From Escherichia coli (lineage in GTDB: Bacteria; Pseudomonadota; Gammaproteobacteria; Enterobacterales; Enterobacteriaceae), in NCBI RefSeq assembly GCF_048403405.1, contig NZ_CP183129.1: 64,000 nt of DNA; one strand, written 5' to 3'. Under the pieces are notes generated by a model. That model had not been told where the DNA came from, ran no database searches, and saw only the letters and a program-made list of their open reading frames with translations. Shown piece by piece: positions 5,194-52,303 of the stretch (within the stretch, counting starts at the first letter, position 1; every line of letters begins with the position of its first letter). The translations under genes and the position numbers were made by a program.

Positions 5194-5202
5194 GTCCATA
5201 AG

Positions 5203-5436
5203 AAAGCCCCTCCGGAGAGGGGCTAAAGCCGCGTATCTGTATCATCATGCACATGGTGCCGGGTGCCTCCCGGTGAGTTCAGCCCGGTGCCACTAAACCC
5301 GCGTCATTCTCGTTTTGATAATCAGAGATTATACCGTCACCAGTCGCCCCTCCGCTCAGGGGGATTCACCATGCGAAATTTTTTTAACAAATGCCCAGTC
5401 TGACAGGCAACTGTCAACTTACTGAATTGTGAGCAA
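5203..5436 (-). repeat. copy 1 of a tandem ~220-bp structured element (candidate sRNA unit)
   Basis: Direct repeat of 5690..5904 (roughly three-quarters identity by eye); shares the hairpins agcccctc-cgga-gaggggct and ggtgccgggtgcctcccggtga; on the minus strand the unit ends in hairpin plus T-tract. Confidence 0.6.
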
Positions 5437-5689
5437 CATAGCATTTAACGGGGAACCTGTTTTCTGCAGTAAAAAGGCCCACCGGAGCGGATGGGCCTGG
5501 AAGGATAGCGGTCATGTGATGCCGGTTTCCCGGTAACTCAGCACCGGTATCTGAGTCAACGTTTTCTCTACTGGGTCATTTCCGATACGCCCTGCCTGCT
5601 GACAGGCTTTCATCACATCTGAAAATATAGCACCCTGACTGATACTGTAGTACCTAAGGTTCCAGAAACTGTGATGTATCCGGCACAGA

Positions 5690-5904
5690 AAAGCCCCTCC
5701 GGAGAGGGGCTGGAGAGTGGCGCTATGTGCCATTGCATGGTGCCGGGTGCCTCCCGGTGAATTCAGTACCAGCACCTGAATCCGCGATTATCCCATATAC
5801 CTACTCGCTGATTGCCCCTCCGCACAGGGGGATTCACCATGCCAGTTTCTTTTAACAAACTCCCCGCAAACCAGACAACAGTCAACCGCCTGAATTGTGA
5901 GACA
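5690..5904 (-). repeat. copy 2 of the tandem structured element
   Basis: Same hairpin set and shared segments (gggggattcaccatgc, tgaattgtgag) as copy 1. Confidence 0.6.
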
Positions 5905-5945
5905 TTTAAAAAAAAGCCCGCAAAAGCGAGCCAGGGAAAATAAGT

Positions 5946-6022
5946 GTGGCGCGTTGTACTGGATTCGAACCAGTGACCGATTGCTTAGAAGGCAATTGCT
6001 CTGTCCGGCTGAGCTAACAACG
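5946..6022 (-). tRNA. argO: tRNA-Arg (anticodon UCU), phage argO-like
   Basis: Reverse complement folds as canonical cloverleaf: acceptor GCGTTGT/ACAACGC, anticodon loop CTTCTAA, T-loop TTCGAAT, 3' CCA. Confidence 0.85.
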
Positions 6023-6035
6023 CAGGATACAGATA

Positions 6036-6113
6036 ATGGACCGCCTTCGGGGACCCGAACTCCGCGCAACCAGCTTCGAAGGCTGGCGCTCTTTCCTGAT
6101 GAGCTAATGGCGG
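6036..6113 (-). tRNA. argN: tRNA-Arg-like (anticodon UCG inferred), phage argN-like, possibly degenerate
   Basis: Cloverleaf with anticodon stem CCAGC/GCTGG and loop CTTCGAA, but one acceptor mismatch, one T-stem mismatch and atypical T-loop TTCGGGT. Confidence 0.6.
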
Positions 6114-6120
6114 TATGTGA

Positions 6121-6196
6121 TGGTGGCCCTTGCTGGATTTGAACCAGCGACCTGGCGATTATGAGTCGCTCGCTCTCACCACTGAGCTAAAGGGCC
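6121..6196 (-). tRNA. ileZ: tRNA-Ile2-like (anticodon CAU), phage ileZ-like
   Basis: Reverse complement GGCCCTTTAGCTCAGTGGTGAGAGCG...CTCATAA...TTCAAATCCAGCAAGGGCCACCA closely resembles E. coli ileX as recalled. Confidence 0.85.
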
Positions 6197-10770: not shown

Positions 10771-10992
10771 TTATTCCCGAACTACCTTGAAACCGAGTCT
10801 TTCCAAGTATTCAATGAATGCCTCAACAGATAACACTACATGATCATCAGGAATTAACGCTGTGTAGGTAATACCCCCATTCTCAACGCGCACAGCATAG
10901 AGGCCATCTTCACTAAAAATTTCACGTAATTCTTCGATTTTCATCAACAGAATCCTTCCAGATAAATAGCACTCCCCCTGTTCGGGGTCCAT
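10771..10992 (-). CDS. hypothetical small protein (57-73 aa, start ambiguous)
   Basis: Two candidate ATGs (10992, 10944), each with a purine-rich Shine-Dalgarno. Confidence 0.4.
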   Translation of the reverse strand: MDPEQGECYLSGRILLMKIEELREIFSEDGLYAVRVENGGITYTALIPDDHVVLSVEAFIEYLERLGFKVVRE

Positions 10993-11077: not shown

Positions 11078-11100
11078 AAAAACCCGCCGAAGCGGGTATA
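11078..11100 (-). terminator. strong intrinsic terminator ending the two-gene cassette
   Basis: Minus strand acccgc-ttcg-gcgggt then ttttttgtttttatttt; same hairpin core as 12921..12938. Confidence 0.7.
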
Positions 11101-11101
11101 C

Positions 11102-12208
11102 TCAAACAATCTGGAAAATATTTCTTGGATTTGTAATAGGTCTGTTGATGGAGAACAACTCACGAATTAAATCTTGGCTCAAGCCAGTTTTCATAAGAAT
11201 TCTTAGCCAGGTTGCATCATCCAGCATTTCAATCGCCTCGGCCAGCATGCCGGGTTCTTCAGGGCGCAAAAGTTCATCACCAGGTTCAACTCTCGTATAC
11301 CCTCTGGAATTAAGATGCATATAGCCAGTTCTTGCCTGTTCCTGGGTCAATAAGCCTAATGCGCTGGCTCGATAAATACACATTTTAAGGCTGATTTTCC
11401 ATCTAAGTTTAAATTCAACCAGAGCATTCCAGTCGAATTGCTTACCTCGTATTCGTGGAAATTCTTTAATGAAAGATAACCTGGGAACTAATAAGGCGCT
11501 CGAAAAGTGATCGGCTTGTGATTCCGTAAGTTTATCACCTGTCGTTATGCCCTCATGCATTACTAAATGCCCTAATTCATGACCTAAATCAGAGCGAAAT
11601 CTACATATGCTTTTTTTAACATTGTTCCTGATGATAACAGGCCTGTTATTGTGAACAGTAAAAGCATCAACACGATCATCGACTCCCGTAACATGCGCAA
11701 CGATTACCCCTAAACTCTCCGCCAATTTAACCATTGATGATATAGGGCCAAGACCTAAATTCCAGGCACGGCGACAATCTTCTGCCACTCGCTCAATATC
11801 ATTCGGAGTAAGTAATTCAGCCCCTGGGTGCTCCGGTATGTTAACGTCAGGAAATTCGATTTCACCTTCAACAGCAGAAATTATAATATTAAGAATCTCA
11901 GCCCTGGCCAATACACTATTAGTCAGCGTTTGAGTCCTGGACTTCTTACTCCGAAAATGGCAGACATCACTTTCCAGAGCGTATTTTCGTTCAGTAAAAA
12001 GAAAACTGGACTTAATCATAAGCGCTGAAGATATTAACTCAAGACATTGCTCCGATGGCCTGCACCCCTTCTCCAGTTTGCTAACGAATTGCTTTGTCTT
12101 GCCAATTTTTTCGGCTAACTCTTCACAAGAAAGCCCAACAGCCATTCTCGCTAGTTTGAGCTTATCACCCCGATACTCAGTGAAGTTATTCACCTGATGT
12201 TCCATCAC
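11102..12208 (-). CDS. HTH (XRE-family) + ImmA/IrrE-type M78 zinc metallopeptidase fusion protein
   Basis: N-terminal helix-turn-helix (LKLARMAVGLSCEELAEKIGKTKQFVSKLEKG); C-terminal HExxH (HELGHLVMHE); start overlaps the upstream gene by 23 bp. Confidence 0.8.
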   Translation of the reverse strand: MMEHQVNNFTEYRGDKLKLARMAVGLSCEELAEKIGKTKQFVSKLEKGCRPSEQCLELISSALMIKSSFLFTERKYALESDVCHFRSKKSRTQTLTNSVLARAEILNIIISAVEGEIEFPDVNIPEHPGAELLTPNDIERVAEDCRRAWNLGLGPISSMVKLAESLGVIVAHVTGVDDRVDAFTVHNNRPVIIRNNVKKSICRFRSDLGHELGHLVMHEGITTGDKLTESQADHFSSALLVPRLSFIKEFPRIRGKQFDWNALVEFKLRWKISLKMCIYRASALGLLTQEQARTGYMHLNSRGYTRVEPGDELLRPEEPGMLAEAIEMLDDATWLRILMKTGLSQDLIRELFSINRPITNPRNIFQIV

Positions 12209-12836
12209 TGCTCACATCCAAATCTTTATCCTTCGTACGCCGACGAAGAGGCACCTTATTAATCTCCGCTTCGTCAGGGAGTGTGTTATAATCAAGAGGC
12301 ATAAGCGGCATCGATGCTGTAGATTGATGAGAAACTATACTAATCTGAGCACCATAAGTATTAAATCCAACAAGAGCTACCTCCCAACGAGGCAGTGTGG
12401 ACTCTAATTCACCATCGCCCTCTTCGGATAAAAAAGGCTCAGCTATGACTCGCCATGTAATATCTTGCTCAGCCTCAACATCACCAAACAATGAGAGCTG
12501 CTCATACTCTACTTTATTTCGACGCAGACGATGTTTCTTTTTGGGGTTATTAATGCAATCTTTGGTAAATTGTAGCGGAACTTTATTTAAAGCAACTACA
12601 TAGTCCAACCCCTTGGAAATCATCTCAAGGCCAGGAATTGCATCTTCATTTTGAATAAGATGATTTCTGACCCAATCATAAGCCCTTACACCTTCAGACC
12701 AGTTGCTGTCTAATGCGTGCTTATGATAGTACAGCTGCTCAAGTACGTTAGCGATCTCCGCCAACAAGTGGCGAACATAGTTTTCAGCAAGATAAGGTTG
12801 AAATTCCCAACAAGGAGCTAACTGATTTTCATTCAT
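12186..12836 (-). CDS. hypothetical 216-aa protein with no recognisable domain, first gene of the cassette
   Basis: ATG at 12836; basic patch NPKKKHRLRRNK, acidic C-terminus; translationally coupled to the HTH-peptidase gene. Confidence 0.6.
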   Translation of the reverse strand: MNENQLAPCWEFQPYLAENYVRHLLAEIANVLEQLYYHKHALDSNWSEGVRAYDWVRNHLIQNEDAIPGLEMISKGLDYVVALNKVPLQFTKDCINNPKKKHRLRRNKVEYEQLSLFGDVEAEQDITWRVIAEPFLSEEGDGELESTLPRWEVALVGFNTYGAQISIVSHQSTASMPLMPLDYNTLPDEAEINKVPLRRRTKDKDLDVSSDGTSGE

Positions 12837-12861
12837 TTCAAGTTTCGCTTTTTTTAGAATT

Positions 12862-12890
12862 CGTAAACCACATATTTTCGCATTTTTCTA
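12862..12890 (-). promoter_or_regulatory. candidate sigma70 promoter for the two-gene cassette
   Basis: Minus strand TTGACA, 17-bp spacer, AAATAT, about 25 bp upstream of the ATG. Confidence 0.4.
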
Positions 12891-12914
12891 TTTTTGTCAA
12901 CCAGACTAATGCAA

Positions 12915-12942
12915 AAACCCGCCGAAGCGGGTTAAGTGCGGG
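12915..12942 (-). terminator. intrinsic terminator downstream of hokD
   Basis: Minus strand aacccgc-ttcg-gcgggtt then tttgc; same hairpin core as 11081..11096. Confidence 0.55.
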
Positions 12943-13001
12943 TGCGTTGAGGATGCCTGGCACATCAGAGGTGGCGGGAGATTACTCCCCCGCCGGGTCT
13001 C

Positions 13002-13157
13002 TTACTCCTCAGGTTCGTAAGCTGTGAAGACAGCGACCTCCGTCTGGCCGGTTCGGATTCGTACCTCGCAGAGGTCTTTCCTCGTTACCAGTGCCGTCAC
13101 AATGACGGTTAAACAGATGACGATCAGGGCGATTAACATCGCCTTTTGCTGCTTCAT
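13002..13157 (-). CDS. hokD: Hok/Gef-family type I toxin (HokD/RelF-like), with overlapping mok-like leader ORF to 13214
   Basis: MKQQKAMLIALIVICLTVIVTALVTRKDLCEVRIRTGQTEVAVFTAYEPEE matches HokD as recalled. Confidence 0.85.
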   Translation of the reverse strand: MKQQKAMLIALIVICLTVIVTALVTRKDLCEVRIRTGQTEVAVFTAYEPEE

Positions 13158-13394
13158 AGCCTGCTTCCCCTTGCCTTTCGGCACGTAAGAGGCTAACCTA
13201 CATTTGTGAGACATAGATTGGGCCTCAGATTAATGTTAAGCGTCTTGCAGGACGCGAAATGTTAACTGGGGCTTTTCTCTATCTGCCTTTCAGTGTTCAT
13301 GCCTGAGACAGATAGCCTCAAGCACCCGCAGCCATTCTACTTAACTCACGTCACCTCGCCAATATGAAATCAATCAGAAAGGTGATCCATAAAA

Positions 13395-14081
13395 TCACTC
13401 CTTCTCTTCTTTTCCGTAGTGGAGTTGGCCAATTTTGATAAGAGGGCGTCCCTGAGATTTGCGGTGTAGATTGGTATCGCGCAGAGAATACACACAGCCA
13501 CAATATTCCTGCTGATAGAATTTTTCGCGCTTGCTGATTTCAATCATACGGGACGAGCCGCCCTGCTTGCGCCAGTTATAATCCCAGTACACCATACCCG
13601 GATAATGCGCAACAGCTCGCCGCCCACACTCGTTAACCTGCTGCATATTTTTCCAGCGTGAAATGCCCAGTGAACTGCTGATCACACTGAAACCATTTTC
13701 AGCAGCGTACAACGCTGTCCGCTCAAAACGCATGTCAAAACACATGGTACAACGGATCCCCCTCTCAGGCTCCCATTCCATTCCTTTGGCACGTTCAAAC
13801 CAGTTGTCGGTGTCGTAATCAGCATCGATAAACGGCACGCCGTGTTGTTCAGCAAAGCGAATATTTTCATCCTTACGAATTAAATACTCTTTCTGAGGAT
13901 GAATGTTCGGGTTGTAGAAAAAGATGGTGTAGTCGATTCCCGAGGCCTGAAGCGCCTCCATCACTTCACCGGAACATGGAGCACAGCAAGAGTGCAGTAG
14001 TAGTTTGTTTGCCCCGTTTGGGAGCTCCAATTTAGGCCGTTTGAAATCAGCAATAGTCATAAATATTTTTATTGGGGTCAT
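13395..14081 (-). CDS. QueH-like (DUF208) epoxyqueuosine reductase homologue
   Basis: HSCCAPCS motif plus additional conserved Cys; 228 aa from ATG 14081; the ORF-track start at 14123 is a TTG inside the IS150 inverted repeat and is rejected. Confidence 0.7.
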
Positions 14082-14135
14082 GAAAATAGCACAGAGTGTA
14101 GCATCAGAGTGTACTGACCCCAAAAAGTTGGACAG

Positions 14136-14987
14136 TTAAACACGAGGCATATAGGTCTGATTCCGATATTCAATTGGAGTCAGACCTTTTAATTTCAGGC
14201 TAATTCTTCTGCTGTTGTAGTATTCAATATATTCCGTAACAGCATCCTTCAGTTCGCTTATATTACTGAACTCATCAAGATAAAAACACTCCGACTTTAA
14301 GGTTCCAAAGAAACACTCCACCACAGCATTATCCAGACAATTGCCTTTTCTGGACATGCTTTGTTTAATACCATGTTCTTTAAGGATATTTTGATATCTT
14401 CTCATACGATACTGCCATCCCTGGTCAGAGTGCAGAACAGGATGCTCGTGAGGATTAAGCTTTTTGAATGCCTGATCGAGCATATTCTCAACCATGTTCA
14501 TCACTGGTCTTTCCGAAAGGCTGTAAGAAATAACTTCGTTGTTGAAGAGATCTATTACTGGAGACAAATACAGCTTGCGCCCATTGACTGCAAATTCAGT
14601 AACATCGGTAACCCACTTCTCGTTTGGCCGCGTAGCCTTGAAATCTCTTTGGAGAACATTAGGGGCGGTTTGCCCTACCTCTCCTCTGTAAGAGCGGTAT
14701 CGCTTGACCTTAATCGCTGCTTTAAGTGAGAGGGTTCCCATCAGGCGCTGAACAGCTTTATGGTTAATCTGTTTCCCTTCTCGATGAAGAGACAGCGTTA
14801 CCCTACGGTATCCGTATCGGCCTCTATTCTCGTGATAAATCTCACTAATACGCTTTTTAACGTCCGCATACTTGTCAGGCTTGCTGAGAGCCTTTAGATG
14901 ATAATAAAACGTACTGCGCGGTATCTCCGCAGCCCTGAGAAGCTCATCAAGAGGATAAAACTGCCTTAGCTCGTTGAGTACTTTCAC
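14136..14987 (-). CDS. insK: IS150 transposase OrfB (integrase/DDE domain)
   Basis: 283 aa; matches InsK as recalled; overlaps OrfA in the -1 frame. Confidence 0.9.
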
Positions 14988-15505
14988 TTTTTCGTGGGAT
15001 GAGCTAAGGCTTTCAGCTTTTTTAGATACATAAGCCGCGTTTCAAGAAATCGAACTTGCCTTTCAAGATCCTCAATGCGTCGGTCTTTTGACAGCTCCAA
15101 TGCTGATGCCGCTTTTTCTGGATCAACTGATATTGCAATGTTTCTTTTGGTGCCAATCTTGAGCGCGCGTAAACCAGCTTCTCCGCGCTCTTCATAGACC
15201 TTCAGCCACCTGGCTACAGAACCACTACCAGCAAGCATAAAGTGAGCAGCAGCCTGATTAAGGGACATGTGCTGCTCGATCACAGCTTTCACGACCTTAA
15301 TACGCAACTCTGGATCAGCACTAACGCCTTTAGGTTTGGGAATTAAACCTTTTTCTCCATGTTTTTCATAGAGGGCAACCCATGTCCTGACCTGGGTTCG
15401 GGGGACACCAAAACGTGCCGAGATGATCCTGTAACCATCATCAGTTGTGAAGTAGTGATTCACGACTTCAAGGCGCTTTTCAAAAGGGTATTTTGGCTTT
15501 GACAT
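14984..15505 (-). CDS. insJ: IS150 transposase OrfA (HTH)
   Basis: 173 aa; MSKPKYPFEKRLEVVNHYF... matches InsJ as recalled. Confidence 0.9.
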   Translation of the reverse strand: MSKPKYPFEKRLEVVNHYFTTDDGYRIISARFGVPRTQVRTWVALYEKHGEKGLIPKPKGVSADPELRIKVVKAVIEQHMSLNQAAAHFMLAGSGSVARWLKVYEERGEAGLRALKIGTKRNIAISVDPEKAASALELSKDRRIEDLERQVRFLETRLMYLKKLKALAHPTKK

Positions 15506-15680
15506 ATTAGGGGCTATTCCATTTCATCGTCCAACAAAATGGGTGCAGTACAGAGCAGGGCTATCGGGAATATATGTCTAAATCTGGTAATATCTGGTTT
15601 TGACGCAAAGCGGACAACCACGCTGGCTCTACCCTGCGCCATGAAAATGTCAATTCACATCTGAACTAATGCTCTTTAAT

Positions 15681-16121
15681 CTAGTAACGTCTAAAATACC
15701 TAACATTTCCTTGATAAAATGCCAGTACACGCTGCATAGCTTCGCTCTTCCGGCACTCGCGACAGATTATATTCAGGCGCCTGTCGTAGCGGCGTATTTC
15801 GCCGTCTGGTAACGACCAGATAAGGTCCGGATCAACCACTGCAGGTTTCTTCACCTTTGCCCTTGAGAGTTTTTTGCGAGCATTTTGCCAGTCCTTACGC
15901 GCCTGTTCAGACGGGAATAACCCGTAACCAGAGTTGTATACATCGCCACTGGCAACCAGCTCTCTGGCGAGAACACTCATCAGATATCTTGTCGCACCTG
16001 TCTTGGCTTCCAGTTGCCGCAACGTCTCGCGACCGCTCAGACGTACAAGTTCAACAACCTGCCCTTTAATTTTTTCCCGCTCTTCTTGTGTAAATACTTT
16101 TGCCATAAGCGCCTCCGGCAA
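15681..16121 (-). CDS. hypothetical prophage protein (146 aa)
   Basis: ORF abutting the 262-aa gene; Cys pair ICRECRK; no confident family. Confidence 0.45.
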   Translation of the reverse strand: MPEALMAKVFTQEEREKIKGQVVELVRLSGRETLRQLEAKTGATRYLMSVLARELVASGDVYNSGYGLFPSEQARKDWQNARKKLSRAKVKKPAVVDPDLIWSLPDGEIRRYDRRLNIICRECRKSEAMQRVLAFYQGNVRYFRRY

Positions 16122-16910
16122 TCACTTTTCCGATACAACACGGCGGGAAGAATCAGTAATCTGTCGAACAATATCCCGGTGCTTGTTCAGCTCCCGCAGC
16201 GCGGCGCAGACTCGCTCCCACTTCTGAACATCACTTTTCGCCCTGCGCAGCGCCAGGTTTGCCCTGCGAAGGGACGGAAAAATCAGCTCATCTGCTTGCG
16301 TTTCGGTAAACGATGGCAACGGCTGCACAATGTCCGCCACAGTTTCTGTTTTAATTTCTTCCTGTGTTGCGGCTTCCCGGACTGGTAACGCAGCACCTGC
16401 TGGCTGAGGAAAGGCCTTACCATCACTTTCCGTTACCAGCGCGGCTTTCGGCTCTGCTGGTAAATTATCGCCCGGCATGCAGTAACGAAATTTACCGTTC
16501 TGATTAACGCGTGCCAGCCGCCCCGTTGCGGTTACCACCGCCAGCGTGGAAGCAACCTTGCGAGTACTGACACCGAACTTACCCGCCAGTTCCTCACACG
16601 TTTTAGCCCCATCCTGACCGATAAACTCAATCATCATGTCTGCGGTAACTTTTTGTTCGACCTCCCCGGTCAGCATATCCTGTGCTTCAGATTTTACTGG
16701 CCGCTCTTCGGTTACCCGGGATTCACCTTCGCCAGCCAGAAACCAGGTGTGACCAGTTTTATCAACGACGCCTTTTCTTTTGAGTTCCCACAGCTCGTTG
16801 AGAACCTCTTCACGACTGATATCAAGTCGCGCGGCCAGTTCTACCGATGTGGCTTTTCCCATTGCTTTCAGTGCGTCAAATACGGTTTCCATTAAAATTT
16901 CCTCCGACAA
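16122..16910 (-). CDS. hypothetical replication-region protein (262 aa), possible winged-helix regions
   Basis: ORF downstream of the P-like gene; no P-loop. Confidence 0.45.
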
Positions 16911-21529: not shown

Positions 21530-21587
21530 TTTCTGGTGACATTTGGCGGTATCAGTTTTACTCCGTGACTGCTCTGCCGCCCTTTTT
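21530..21587 (+). ncRNA. dicF: DicF small RNA
   Basis: tttctggtgacatttggcggtatcagttttactccgtgactgctctgccgcccttttt is near-identical to K-12 DicF as recalled, including terminator hairpin. Confidence 0.85.
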
Positions 21588-26172: not shown

Positions 26173-26826
26173 TTAAAAACGATATCCTGCCGAGAACATA
26201 AACACCCACGGGTCAAGGCGTACATTGTCGCTATAACTGCCTTTAGCCAGTTTACGACCATCAGATTTATACTTCGCGGTGGTATCGATATCCATGTACC
26301 AGACTGACATGTTAACCAACCAGTCACGGTTAATCAGATAATCAACCCCCACCTGCCCGGCAGCTCCCCAGGAATCTTTCAGACTGAGATCGGAAAGCCC
26401 CGCCTCTTTGCCATGATCGTTAAATCCATTATCAAAGAAGGTGGTGTAGTTAATACCTGCCCCAACGTAAGGACGGAATTTGCTGCTGGCATCACCAAAA
26501 TACCACTGCGCCATCAGTGTTGGCGGCAGATGATGAACGGTTGCAATATCGCCGGTCGCCCGGGTGCCGATTTTATGGCGGAACGGCGTCGCTGCCAGCA
26601 ATTCCACACCAATGTTATCGGTCGCCATATAAGTAAACGTCAGGCCCAGTTGCGTGTTATTGGTCACGCTGAATCCACCCAGACTTCCTAACGTACCACC
26701 AGCACCTTCTGTTGGACGTACGGTTGCAGACCCTGCACGCATAAAAAATTCGCCTGCTTCATGCGCATAGGCACTGCCAGAGAGAAGAGTTGTTACTGCC
26801 AAAGCCGCCACTGTTAACTTTTTCAT
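26173..26826 (-). CDS. ompW: outer membrane protein OmpW (variant C-terminal loop)
   Basis: Signal peptide MKKLTVAALAVTTLLSGSAYA and body match OmpW; residues ~183-200 differ from the K-12 sequence as recalled. Confidence 0.9.
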   Translation of the reverse strand: MKKLTVAALAVTTLLSGSAYAHEAGEFFMRAGSATVRPTEGAGGTLGSLGGFSVTNNTQLGLTFTYMATDNIGVELLAATPFRHKIGTRATGDIATVHHLPPTLMAQWYFGDASSKFRPYVGAGINYTTFFDNGFNDHGKEAGLSDLSLKDSWGAAGQVGVDYLINRDWLVNMSVWYMDIDTTAKYKSDGRKLAKGSYSDNVRLDPWVFMFSAGYRF

Positions 26827-34077: not shown

Positions 34078-34762
34078 AAATGCGCCTATAAGGCTCTCTT
34101 ACCAGCCGCGCCCTAACAGGCGCACACGATCTGACATTTGCATCCAACTTCGTTACTTACGGCCCGTAAACGGGCTGCCCGGATAGGGAATCGATAACTG
34201 CTCTCCCATTTTATCCTCTTCAAGCTGGTGCTTTATGTAATCCTGTATCTTCGCCGTGTTCTTACCCACCGTATCGACGTAGTACCCTCTGCACCAGAAC
34301 TCCCTGTTCCTGTATTTGAATTTCAAATCACCAAACTGCTCGTAAAGCATCAGACTGCTTTTCCCTTTCAGATATCCCATAAAGCCGGATACGCTCATTT
34401 TGGGCGGGATCTCCACAAGCATATGGATATGATCTGCACAGCATTCAGCTTCCAGAATCCGTACACTTTTCCACTCACACAGCTTTCTCAAAATACTGCC
34501 TATTGCTCTACGCTTCTCTCTGTAGAACACCTGTCTTCGGTATTTTGGCGCAAAAACTATGTGATATTTACAGTTCCATCGGGTGTGCGCTAAGCTCTTT
34601 TCGTTCCCCATTGGGACCCCCTTTTGATTTCTTGTTTGACACTTGCAGTTGCCAGACCGCAAGGTGTTTTAACAAATCAAAAGGGGTTTTAATAACTGGC
34701 TTAAAGCTGAAAGCTTTCCGGAACCCCCAGCCTAGCTGGGGGTTTTCTGTGCACAAAAAAGG
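34078..34762 (-). mobile_element. IS200-like insertion sequence (IS200/IS605 family), boundaries approximate
   Basis: Single Y1 transposase ORF; hairpin ccccagc-cta-gctgggg near the tnpA-upstream end; occupies a short intergenic in K-12. Confidence 0.65.
34153..34611 (-). CDS. tnpA: IS200-type TnpA (HUH/Y1 transposase)
   Basis: 152 aa from MGNEKSLAHTRW; HxH motif (ADHIHMLVEIPP) and conserved Tyr region. Confidence 0.85.
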   Translation of the reverse strand: MGNEKSLAHTRWNCKYHIVFAPKYRRQVFYREKRRAIGSILRKLCEWKSVRILEAECCADHIHMLVEIPPKMSVSGFMGYLKGKSSLMLYEQFGDLKFKYRNREFWCRGYYVDTVGKNTAKIQDYIKHQLEEDKMGEQLSIPYPGSPFTGRK

Positions 34763-51737: not shown

Positions 51738-51822
<85 letters not shown>

Positions 51823-51856
51823 TCTCAAGCATTACCTCAAAATTTGAATTACCCTT

Positions 51857-51941
<85 letters not shown>

Positions 51942-52007
51942 TCACTTTCAAAAGTCCCTGAACTCTCAAACGAATCCGTAATTAAATATTCTGCCCAAGC
52001 GGGGAAG

Positions 52008-52097
52008 GATGAGAAGCTTCGACCAAGGTTCGACTCGAGCGCCAGCGAGAGAGCGTTGCCGCAGGCAACGACCCGAAGGGCGAAGCGCGCAGCGCTG
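52008..52097 (+). CDS. tpr: protamine-like protein Tpr in the tyrT operon 3' region
   Basis: 29-aa [32 protein letters not shown] followed by partial tRNA 3'-end repeat. Confidence 0.6.
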
Positions 52098-52303
52098 AGT
52101 AATCCTTCCCCCACCACCATCACTTCCTGTAAATACTCAAAACCTGTTACTCCGAGCTAATTCTGCCCAATGGCACCGCGTTTACCGGACCTACAATATC
52201 CTCCCCTGAAGTTCGGATAAGCGAAGCGCATCCGACAACTCACCCCGTACCGTGCCCATAAAAAAACCCCGCCGAAGCGGGGTCTATGCAAACTAAAATT
52301 CGC

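What the first reader, a model, noticed from the sequence alone, without database searches (positions are those of the whole stretch)
13002..13394. hokD-like toxin without relBE, beside non-Qin cargo
The Hok peptide is intact with its overlapping mok-like leader. In K-12 Qin, hokD sits next to relBE as I recall; here the neighbour is the queH-like gene and IS150. The ~180 bp upstream should hold the antisense Sok RNA promoter; its integrity decides whether the toxin is restrained.
Basis: partly seen in the sequence, partly recalled or inferred. Interest (0 to 1): 0.3.

Follow-up and report, generated by a model that had tools for sequence, protein, structure and literature searches.

The report
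Intact prophage hokD/sok toxin–antitoxin cassette
This is a complete, ordinary copy of the well-known hok/sok RNA-controlled toxin cassette carried by a lambda-like prophage; the laboratory strain K-12, where relBE sits next to a truncated hokD, is the unusual case.

Summary
Window 13002-13157 (-) encodes a 51-aa Hok peptide identical to K-12 HokD. An in-frame mok-like extension starts at 13214. The whole hok/mok/sok cassette spans about 12912-13362, wider than the reported interval. It has a hok promoter, a 5' tac element that pairs with a 3' fbi element, an anti-SD box over the mok ribosome site, an antisense Sok gene (+ strand, about 13206-13281), a 3' protective hairpin and a terminator. 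The Sok promoter is not in the 180 bp upstream. It lies between the mok and hok start codons (13171-13199), at the same place as in plasmid R1.

There is no relBE anywhere in the window, but that is not an anomaly. K-12 homology starts only at 13171, so K-12 hokD is a 5'-truncated remnant fused behind relBE. The full-length locus is in 2769 of 5426 complete E. coli genomes and in 74 sequenced phages. The relE-hokD junction is in 1164 genomes and the queH-hok junction in 796.

The host element is a lambda-like prophage next to ompW, not Qin. The "cargo" downstream is a Rosmerta (RmrT/RmrA) defence pair bracketed by two copies of the hok terminator.

Verdict: already known, low interest.

The parts
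13334..13362 (-). hok mRNA promoter: -35 TTGGCG (13362-13357), 17-nt spacer, -10 TAGAAT (13339-13334)
   Evidence: This is the only sigma-70-like site found in 12800-13500. It aligns with the TATAAT box of the K-12 hokC locus.
12912..13327 (-). Predicted full-length hok mRNA, 416 nt. The +1 position is placed at 13327/13326 by homology to the R1 hok 5' end.
   Evidence: The R1 5' end comes from the Faridani 2006 primer and was mapped by alignment. The fold has MFE -167 kcal/mol with z = -5.3, and 0 of 100 shuffles fold as well.
13316..13327 (-). tac (translational activator) element, GGGUGCUUGAGG, at the 5' end of the mRNA
   Evidence: It pairs with 12940-12952 in the full-length fold. In the 3'-trimmed RNA it re-pairs locally with AAGCCCC at 13268-13274, the tac-stem. 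93-96% of cells are paired across 7 homologues, against 30-54% in the slid controls.
13266..13272 (-). ucb / anti-SD box, GCCCCAG, which pairs with the mok Shine-Dalgarno region CUGAGGC (13222-13228) in the closed form
   Evidence: Seen in the centroid structure of the full-length RNA. The role is assigned by analogy to R1 (PMC9841398).
13206..13281 (+). Predicted Sok antisense RNA (sokD), ~76 nt: a 14-nt single-stranded 5' tail complementary to the mok start codon region, a long hairpin, then GGGGCUUUUCUCU
   Evidence: The ends were mapped from the annotated K-12 sokC (5' maps to 13206, 3' to 13282) and from the R1 Sok primer ends (13208, 13281). The hairpin fold is -28.1 kcal/mol, z = -5.0.
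13171..13199 (+). Sok promoter: -35 TTGCCT (13171-13176), 17-nt spacer, -10 TAACCT (13194-13199). It lies between the mok and hok start codons.
   Evidence: It is positionally homologous to R1 TTGCGC-17-TATCCT and is 7 nt upstream of the mapped Sok 5' end. It matches 7 of 12 consensus positions, as R1 does, so the 9-of-12 scan did not call it.
13002..13214 (-). mok-like reading frame, 70 codons, in frame with hok. SD GAGG at 13223-13226, ATG at 13214-13212.
   Evidence: ORF list. It is collinear with the annotated K-12 mokC, which is also in frame with hokC.
13002..13157 (-). hok (hokD) toxin ORF, 51 aa plus stop
   Evidence: 100% identical to K-12 HokD. Pfam PF01848 E = 3e-23.
12973..12994 (-). 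3' hairpin GGCGGGGGA-GUAA-UCUCCCGCC. It is the predicted 3' end of the processed (truncated, translatable) hok mRNA.
   Evidence: Seen in the folds. The R1 mature 3' end (Faridani 2006 primer) maps to 12973.
12940..12952 (-). fbi (fold-back inhibition) element, CCUCAACGCACCC, which pairs with tac
   Evidence: 12 base pairs with 13316-13327 in the MFE structure. 96% paired in 7 homologues, with one compensatory U-A to C-G change in R1.
12912..12933 (-). Intrinsic terminator of the hok mRNA, AACCCGCUUCGGCGGGUUUUUG
   Evidence: Terminator scan. It is conserved in K-12 hokD.

Best explanation
The locus is a complete, autonomous hokD-type hok/mok/sok type I toxin-antitoxin cassette. It sits in the early-right (nin-like) region of a lambda-like prophage integrated at ompW.

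Shown here by sequence, homology and folding: a promoter at 13362-13334 is placed to give a ~416-nt hok mRNA. The 5' tac element of that mRNA pairs with the 3' fbi element. An upstream box covers the mok ribosome-binding site.

Inferred from the R1 paradigm: this full-length RNA is stable and can neither be translated nor bound by Sok. Slow 3' trimming back to the hairpin at 12973-12994 removes fbi. Tac then re-pairs locally, which the fold of the trimmed RNA also predicts, and this frees the mok ribosome site and the Sok target. A short-lived ~76-nt Sok RNA is made from the opposite strand, from a promoter between the mok and hok start codons. Sok pairs across the mok start region, blocks mok translation (and so the coupled hok translation), and marks the duplex for RNase III. 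If Sok supply stops, through loss of the element or transcription shut-off, the stored mRNA is translated and the 51-aa Hok peptide depolarises the inner membrane.

The most probable biological role is a selfish stabilising or moron function for the prophage, possibly with some phage exclusion. The role is inferred, not shown.
For: The Hok peptide is identical to K-12 HokD and matches Pfam HOK_GEF at 3e-23. Rfam RF01794 scores 120.5 bits. The locus is collinear, element by element, with the intact hokC locus, with R1-type hok/sok and with four other hokD loci. A promoter and a terminator are found at the expected places. The full-length fold closes 5' on 3' by 12 base pairs, z = -5.3. The trimmed RNA refolds into the tac-stem that the Rfam model also encodes. 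The pairings are kept in homologues at 93-96%, against 30-54% in slid controls, with compensatory changes. The Sok ends map consistently from two independent references, and the Sok hairpin has z = -5.0. The same full-length cassette is present in 2769 of 5426 E. coli genomes and in 74 phage records, including mEp460-like and Stx phages. The mechanism is taken from PMC9841398 and PMC1635323.
Against: No expression or toxicity data exist for this copy. [quoted passage not shown] The Sok promoter hexamers match only 7 of 12 consensus positions (as do R1's) and were not called by the generic scan. The alignment set behind the pairing counts is small (7 sequences, 5 of them close), so covariation is modest.
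Confidence: 0.9

Rival explanations
1. The cassette has intact sequence but is functionally silent. It would be a domesticated or neutral passenger that never kills, like the chromosomal hok loci tested in the 1990s. In that case the integrity of its Sok promoter would have no physiological consequence.
For: [quoted passage not shown] Genomes carry a median of 2 and up to 9 hokD-like places, so cross-acting Sok RNAs could buffer any single copy.
Against: Every regulatory element is retained. The 561-nt stretch that contains the locus matches at 99% identity or more in 39 records, and the locus is conserved in viable temperate phages. HokD peptide was among the homologues tested for toxicity on over-expression, and 42 of the 45 tested were toxic. 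A single chromosomal copy of R1 hok is lethal without Sok (PMC9841398).
Confidence: 0.2
2. The cassette acts mainly as an anti-phage (abortive-infection or exclusion) module. It would form a small defence island with the adjacent Rosmerta pair, rather than acting as a prophage-stabilising addiction module.
For: RmrT/RmrA lie directly downstream, and a Kiwa KwaB-like gene is annotated within the matched queH/DUF977 region of related prophages. Hok has a reported role in phage defence, and hok is enriched in prophages.
Against: The same preprint found no enrichment of hok next to defence systems. The hok cassette also occurs at this position without any defence cargo, for example in K-12-like and rem-adjacent loci.
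Confidence: 0.2
3. hokD here is, as in K-12, the distal gene of a relBE-type operon, with relBE displaced elsewhere in the prophage.
For: K-12 has relB-relE-hokD co-transcribed as relBEF (PMC3598666). The relE-hokD junction exists in 1164 genomes.
Against: No RelB or RelE homologue and no K-12 relBE-region DNA is in the window. None is annotated in the rest of the near-identical prophage of strain 118UI. The locus has its own promoter and complete leader.
Confidence: 0.01

Closest known systems
hokD (relF) of E. coli K-12 Qin prophage, in the relBEF operon
   Same: The Hok peptide is identical over 51 of 51 residues. The hok ORF, 3' UTR, fbi element and terminator are 97.7% identical over window 13171-12912.
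   Different: K-12 lacks everything upstream of 13171: the hok promoter, tac, ucb, the Sok gene, the Sok -10 box and the mok start. These are replaced by relB-relE. The window copy is complete and stands alone. It lies in a prophage at ompW, not at the Qin site.
hok/sok (parB) of plasmid R1
   Same: The architecture is the same and is collinear throughout: promoter, tac, Sok target, Sok promoter between the mok and hok starts, mok, hok, 3' hairpin and fbi. The closed and open alternative folds are the same.
   Different: The peptide is only distantly similar. In R1 mok is out of frame with hok, while here it is in frame (and direct reading). The Sok/target hairpin carries an ~18-nt insertion, giving a Sok of ~76 nt against 63-64 nt. 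The carrier is a prophage rather than a plasmid.
hokC/mokC/sokC (gef) of E. coli
   Same: DNA identity is ~77%. mok is in frame, and the annotated sokC 5' end maps exactly to the predicted Sok start.
   Different: hokC is a core-chromosome locus next to nhaA/dnaJ, and in K-12 it is cut by IS186 20 bp after the stop codon. It lacks the hairpin insertion.
hok/mok ('MokW/HokW', 'gef homolog') cassettes of lambdoid and Stx phages (mEp460-like, VT2-Sakai, Rac)
   Same: The cassette is the same across its full length, at 93-97% identity.
   Different: Nothing essential differs. Only the flanking cargo (queH upstream, Rosmerta downstream) and the nearby IS150 differ.

Membership tests
[quoted passage not shown] | Small hydrophobic Hok/Gef-family peptide | tested here: met
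   Pfam PF01848 E = 3e-23, 81.6 bits against a cut-off of 22. 100% identical to K-12 HokD.
[quoted passage not shown] | An overlapping mok reading frame that starts upstream of hok and has its own Shine-Dalgarno sequence | tested here: met
   70-codon ORF from ATG 13214, with GAGG 9 nt upstream. It is collinear with the annotated mokC.
[quoted passage not shown] | A cis-encoded antisense Sok RNA gene across the mok translation-initiation region, with its promoter inside mok | tested here: met
   Met at sequence level only. Hexamers TTGCCT-17-TAACCT are homologous to R1's. The Sok ends map to 13206-13281 from sokC and from R1. The fold is a hairpin plus U-tract. Rfam RF01794 scores 120.5 bits.
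[quoted passage not shown] | Long-range tac/fbi pairing of the mRNA 5' and 3' ends (closed, inert form) | tested here: met
   12 base pairs between 13316-13327 and 12940-12952 in the MFE structure. 96.4% paired across 7 homologues, against 30-54% when slid.
[quoted passage not shown] | Alternative tac-stem (tac/ucb) in the 3'-processed mRNA, which frees the mok SD | tested here: met
   The predicted fold of RNA trimmed to 12962-12970 forms GGG.UGCU/AAGC.CCC. 93.3% paired, with 3 pairs showing double-sided changes.
[quoted passage not shown] | Sok RNA is expressed and unstable; Hok kills when Sok is depleted | not testable with these tools
   This needs a Northern blot or RNA-seq and a killing assay.
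relBEF operon arrangement of hokD (K-12 type) | relB-relE immediately upstream of hokD, replacing the hok leader | tested here: not met
   No RelB or RelE hit below E = 1 and no DNA match to the K-12 flxA-relE region. A full leader is present instead.
Qin cryptic prophage | The same element at the same chromosomal site as K-12 Qin | tested here: not met
   The window is 99.8-100% identical to the strain 118UI prophage that abuts ompW, with a complete lambda-like late region. Only patches match Qin, at 81-97% identity.
Rosmerta (RmrT/RmrA) defence system (neighbouring cargo) | An RmrT gene followed by an HTH plus M78-peptidase RmrA gene | tested here: met
   PADLOC RmrT 4.6e-25 and RmrA 6.2e-105. 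Pfam HTH_3 and Peptidase_M78 hits. The two ORFs overlap and lie on the same strand.

The most novel reading that the evidence does not exclude
The hok terminator may act as a recurrent docking or recombination point for defence cargo in lambdoid prophages. Here a Rosmerta cassette sits exactly between two copies of the 20-nt terminator core, and other prophages carry other cargo nearby. On this reading the intact hok/sok cassette and the cargo would work together as a prophage-borne defence and addiction island.
Probability: 0.12. Interest if true: 0.3.

Novelty: already known. Interest (0 to 1): 0.08.

Why it matters
It matters little beyond correct annotation. The window carries the complete prophage-borne form of hokD/sok, which is present in about half of complete E. 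coli genomes and in many temperate phages. The useful corrections are these. K-12's relBE-hokD arrangement is a derived truncation and should not be taken as the reference state. The Sok promoter lies inside mok rather than upstream of it. The regulatory unit extends 90 nt past the stop codon, through fbi and the terminator. For anyone working with this strain, the cassette is predicted to be self-restrained, because Sok is intact. The neighbouring genes form a Rosmerta anti-phage system.

Tried and rejected
I searched the window for relB, relE, ydfV and flxA by protein and by DNA and found nothing.

I looked for the exact genome by searching 12800-16200. No complete E. coli genome has the IS150 at this site, so the source strain was not identified.

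Pedersen & Gerdes 1999 (PubMed 10361310) is the primary description of the chromosomal hok loci and of the K-12 hokD truncation. It is not held in the library. The truncation claim therefore rests on my own alignments, not on that paper.

A search for 'sokD' in the literature gave no relevant hit.

The generic promoter scan did not call the Sok promoter. I assigned it by positional homology instead.

NCBIfam Hok models score below their curated cut-offs for this peptide: 48.5 bits against 73 for NF007279, and 40.2 against 89 for the HokA model NF007290. I relied on Pfam and on identity to HokD.

I considered whether the IS150 disrupts the cassette. It does not: it lies about 750 bp upstream of the hok promoter, on the far side of queH.

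Full report
**What is there**

On the minus strand, window 13157-13002 encodes MKQQKAMLIALIVICLTVIVTALVTRKDLCEVRIRTGQTEVAVFTAYEPEE. This peptide is 100% identical to K-12 HokD (tblastn). RefSeq gives it the same protein accession, WP_000813254.1, in K-12 and in the near-identical locus of strain 118UI. Pfam HOK_GEF matches at E = 3e-23.

The ORF extends upstream in frame to an ATG at 13214, giving 70 codons. This extension is collinear with the annotated K-12 mokC, which is also in frame with hokC. Rfam RF01794 ('sok') scores 120.5 bits, against a gathering score of 59, at 13152-13327. It is the only such hit in the window.

**Anatomy of the cassette**

A generic scan finds one sigma-70-like promoter, TTGGCG-17-TAGAAT at 13362-13334 on the minus strand. 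It also finds one intrinsic terminator at 12933-12916 on the minus strand.

I took the experimentally used ends of R1 hok mRNA and Sok RNA from the primers in Faridani et al. 2006 (PMC1635323). The R1-type sequence was verified as a 100% match in plasmids and fetched as L004. I also used the annotated K-12 sokC. Mapping these through alignments gives:
- hok mRNA +1 at 13327/13326;
- Sok 5' end at 13206-13208;
- Sok 3' end at 13281-13282;
- the processed hok 3' end at about 12973.

The predicted 416-nt full-length mRNA folds with z = -5.3. Its first 12 nucleotides (tac, GGGUGCUUGAGG) pair with 12952-12940 (fbi, CCUCAACGCACCC). In the centroid structure, GCCCCAG (13272-13266) covers the mok SD region CUGAGGC (13228-13222). 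When the RNA is trimmed just upstream of fbi, tac re-pairs locally with AAGCCCC. This is the tac-stem of the translatable form described for R1 (PMC9841398), and it is also the structure encoded in the Rfam model.

I aligned seven homologues: the window, three other chromosomal hokD loci, one hokD locus on a plasmid, an uninterrupted hokC locus, and R1. Across them:
- the tac/fbi helix is 96% paired, against 30-54% with slid partners;
- the tac-stem plus inner hairpin is 93% paired, with three pairs changed on both sides.

The set is small and mostly closely related, so this shows consistency rather than independent proof.

**Sok and its promoter**

The + strand from 13206 gives a 14-nt unpaired tail, GUGAGACAUAGAUU, complementary to the mok start codon region. 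The tail is followed by a long hairpin and GGGGCUUUUCUCU. The fold is -28.1 kcal/mol, z = -5.0.

Seven nucleotides upstream of that start lies TTGCCT-17-TAACCT (13171-13199, + strand). This is positionally homologous to R1's TTGCGC-17-TATCCT. Both match 7 of 12 consensus positions, which is why the 9-of-12 scan did not list it.

That upstream stretch holds the hok promoter, tac, ucb and the Sok-coding/target sequence. Relative to the Rfam consensus and to R1 and hokC, the Sok/target hairpin carries an ~18-nt insertion. This insertion is typical of hokD-type loci.

**relBE and K-12**

No RelB, RelE, YdfV or FlxA homologue and no DNA from the K-12 flxA-relE interval occurs in the window. None is annotated in the remaining late region of the near-identical prophage of strain 118UI.

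This is not an anomaly. K-12 hokD matches the window only over 13171-12912, at 97.7% identity, and the alignment shows relE-proximal sequence replacing everything upstream. K-12 hokD therefore lacks the hok promoter, tac, ucb, the Sok gene, the Sok -10 box and the mok start. It is expressed as the third gene of relBEF (PMC3598666).

Among 5426 complete E. coli genomes:
- 2769 carry a place that covers at least 80% of the full-length query;
- 1164 carry the relE-hokD junction;
- 796 carry the queH-hok junction seen here.

The full cassette is also in 74 phage records at 93-97% identity. These include mEp460-like phages, Stx phages such as VT2-Sakai (annotated 'gef homolog'), and a Rac record annotated mok/hok. 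A recent survey likewise reports hok enrichment in prophages (10.1101/2025.08.07.668861).

**Context**

The window is 99.8-100% identical to a prophage of strain 118UI that abuts ompW and has a full lambda-like late region. It shares only patches with Qin, at 81-97% identity. It is therefore not Qin.

Going upstream from the cassette, the neighbours are queH (13395-14060, minus strand), then an IS150 (14110-15552, 3-bp duplication GAG), then a DUF977 gene. The IS150 site is empty in 118UI and in the other genomes whose flanks match at 100%.

Going downstream, the 'non-Qin cargo' is a Rosmerta pair: RmrT at 12836-12186 and RmrA at 12208-11102. It is bracketed by two copies of the terminator core ACCCGCTTCGGCGGGTTTTT, at 12913-12932 and 11078-11097, where chance expects 0. 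After the second copy the sequence resumes as in K-12 toward rem, of which only a 26-codon stub remains.

**How it most likely works**

Shown here:
- all sequence elements of a hok/sok cassette are present and intact;
- the alternative closed and open RNA folds are predicted and are compatible with homologues.

Inferred from R1:
- the full-length mRNA is stable and inert;
- slow 3' trimming to the 12973-12994 hairpin removes fbi and triggers refolding;
- short-lived Sok pairs over the mok initiation region, blocks the coupled mok/hok translation and triggers RNase III cleavage;
- loss of Sok supply lets Hok be made, and Hok depolarises the membrane.

Whether this prophage copy actually kills, stabilises the prophage or excludes phages is unknown. 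Earlier tests of the chromosomal hokA, hokB and hokC loci found no post-segregational killing (relayed). By contrast, a single chromosomal R1 hok copy is lethal without Sok.

**Verdict**

This is a real, complete and ordinary member of a very well-known family: already known, of low interest. The framing (relBE missing, Qin, Sok promoter upstream) needs the corrections given above.

Noticed in passing
window 11102-12836 (-), repeats at 12913-12932 and 11078-11097: The two genes downstream of hok are a Rosmerta anti-phage pair (RmrT 4.6e-25, RmrA 6.2e-105 in PADLOC). The cassette lies exactly between two copies of the 20-nt hok terminator core. K-12 runs straight from that terminator to rem. 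This suggests cargo insertion or exchange at the terminator.
   Followed up: partly
window 14110-15552: There is a clean IS150 insertion: 1443 bp, with ends TGTACTG...CAGTACA and a 3-bp target duplication GAG. It lies 50 bp upstream of the queH start codon and is oriented like queH and hok. The site is empty in strain 118UI and in the other genomes whose flanks match at 100%. No complete E. coli genome in the collection has the insertion at this site.
   Followed up: partly
window 13152-13327 (-): Rfam RF01794 is named 'sok antitoxin', but it matches on the hok-sense strand and runs to the hok AUG. Its consensus structure is the tac-stem form of the hok mRNA leader. The strand of such hits should not be read as the strand of Sok.
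   Followed up: yes
window 13014-13020 (-): The Tyr47 codon of hok lies in UUACGAA, a TadA-like editing motif. A 2026 preprint states that hokC, hokD and hokE mRNAs are A-to-I edited to give a Cys at this position. Editing here was not tested.
   Followed up: no
window 10870-10947 (-): Only the first 26 codons of a rem homologue remain, at 73% identity to K-12 Rem. The same stub is annotated as a partial pseudogene in strain 118UI.
   Followed up: partly
window 1-~26130, ompW at ~26173-26826: The prophage is a lambda-like element inserted at ompW, about 53 kb in the sister strain 118UI. Its Qin/Rac-like early region carries dicB, DicF (21531-21582) and ydfABC. The window holds only the half from int to the lysis genes.
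   Followed up: partly
window 5194-6196 (-): Two tandem STnc100 sRNA copies (5194-5403 and 5681-5871) sit beside three phage tRNA genes (5950-6196), in the region downstream of the Q antiterminator. Strain 118UI has an IS3-family element inserted at about this position, which the window lacks.
   Followed up: no
window 34621-34744 (-), 51738-52119 (+): The chromosomal part of the window contains STnc490 and the tyrT-tyrV-RtT array. This is consistent with the tonB-ompW/tyrTV region of the E. coli chromosome.
   Followed up: no
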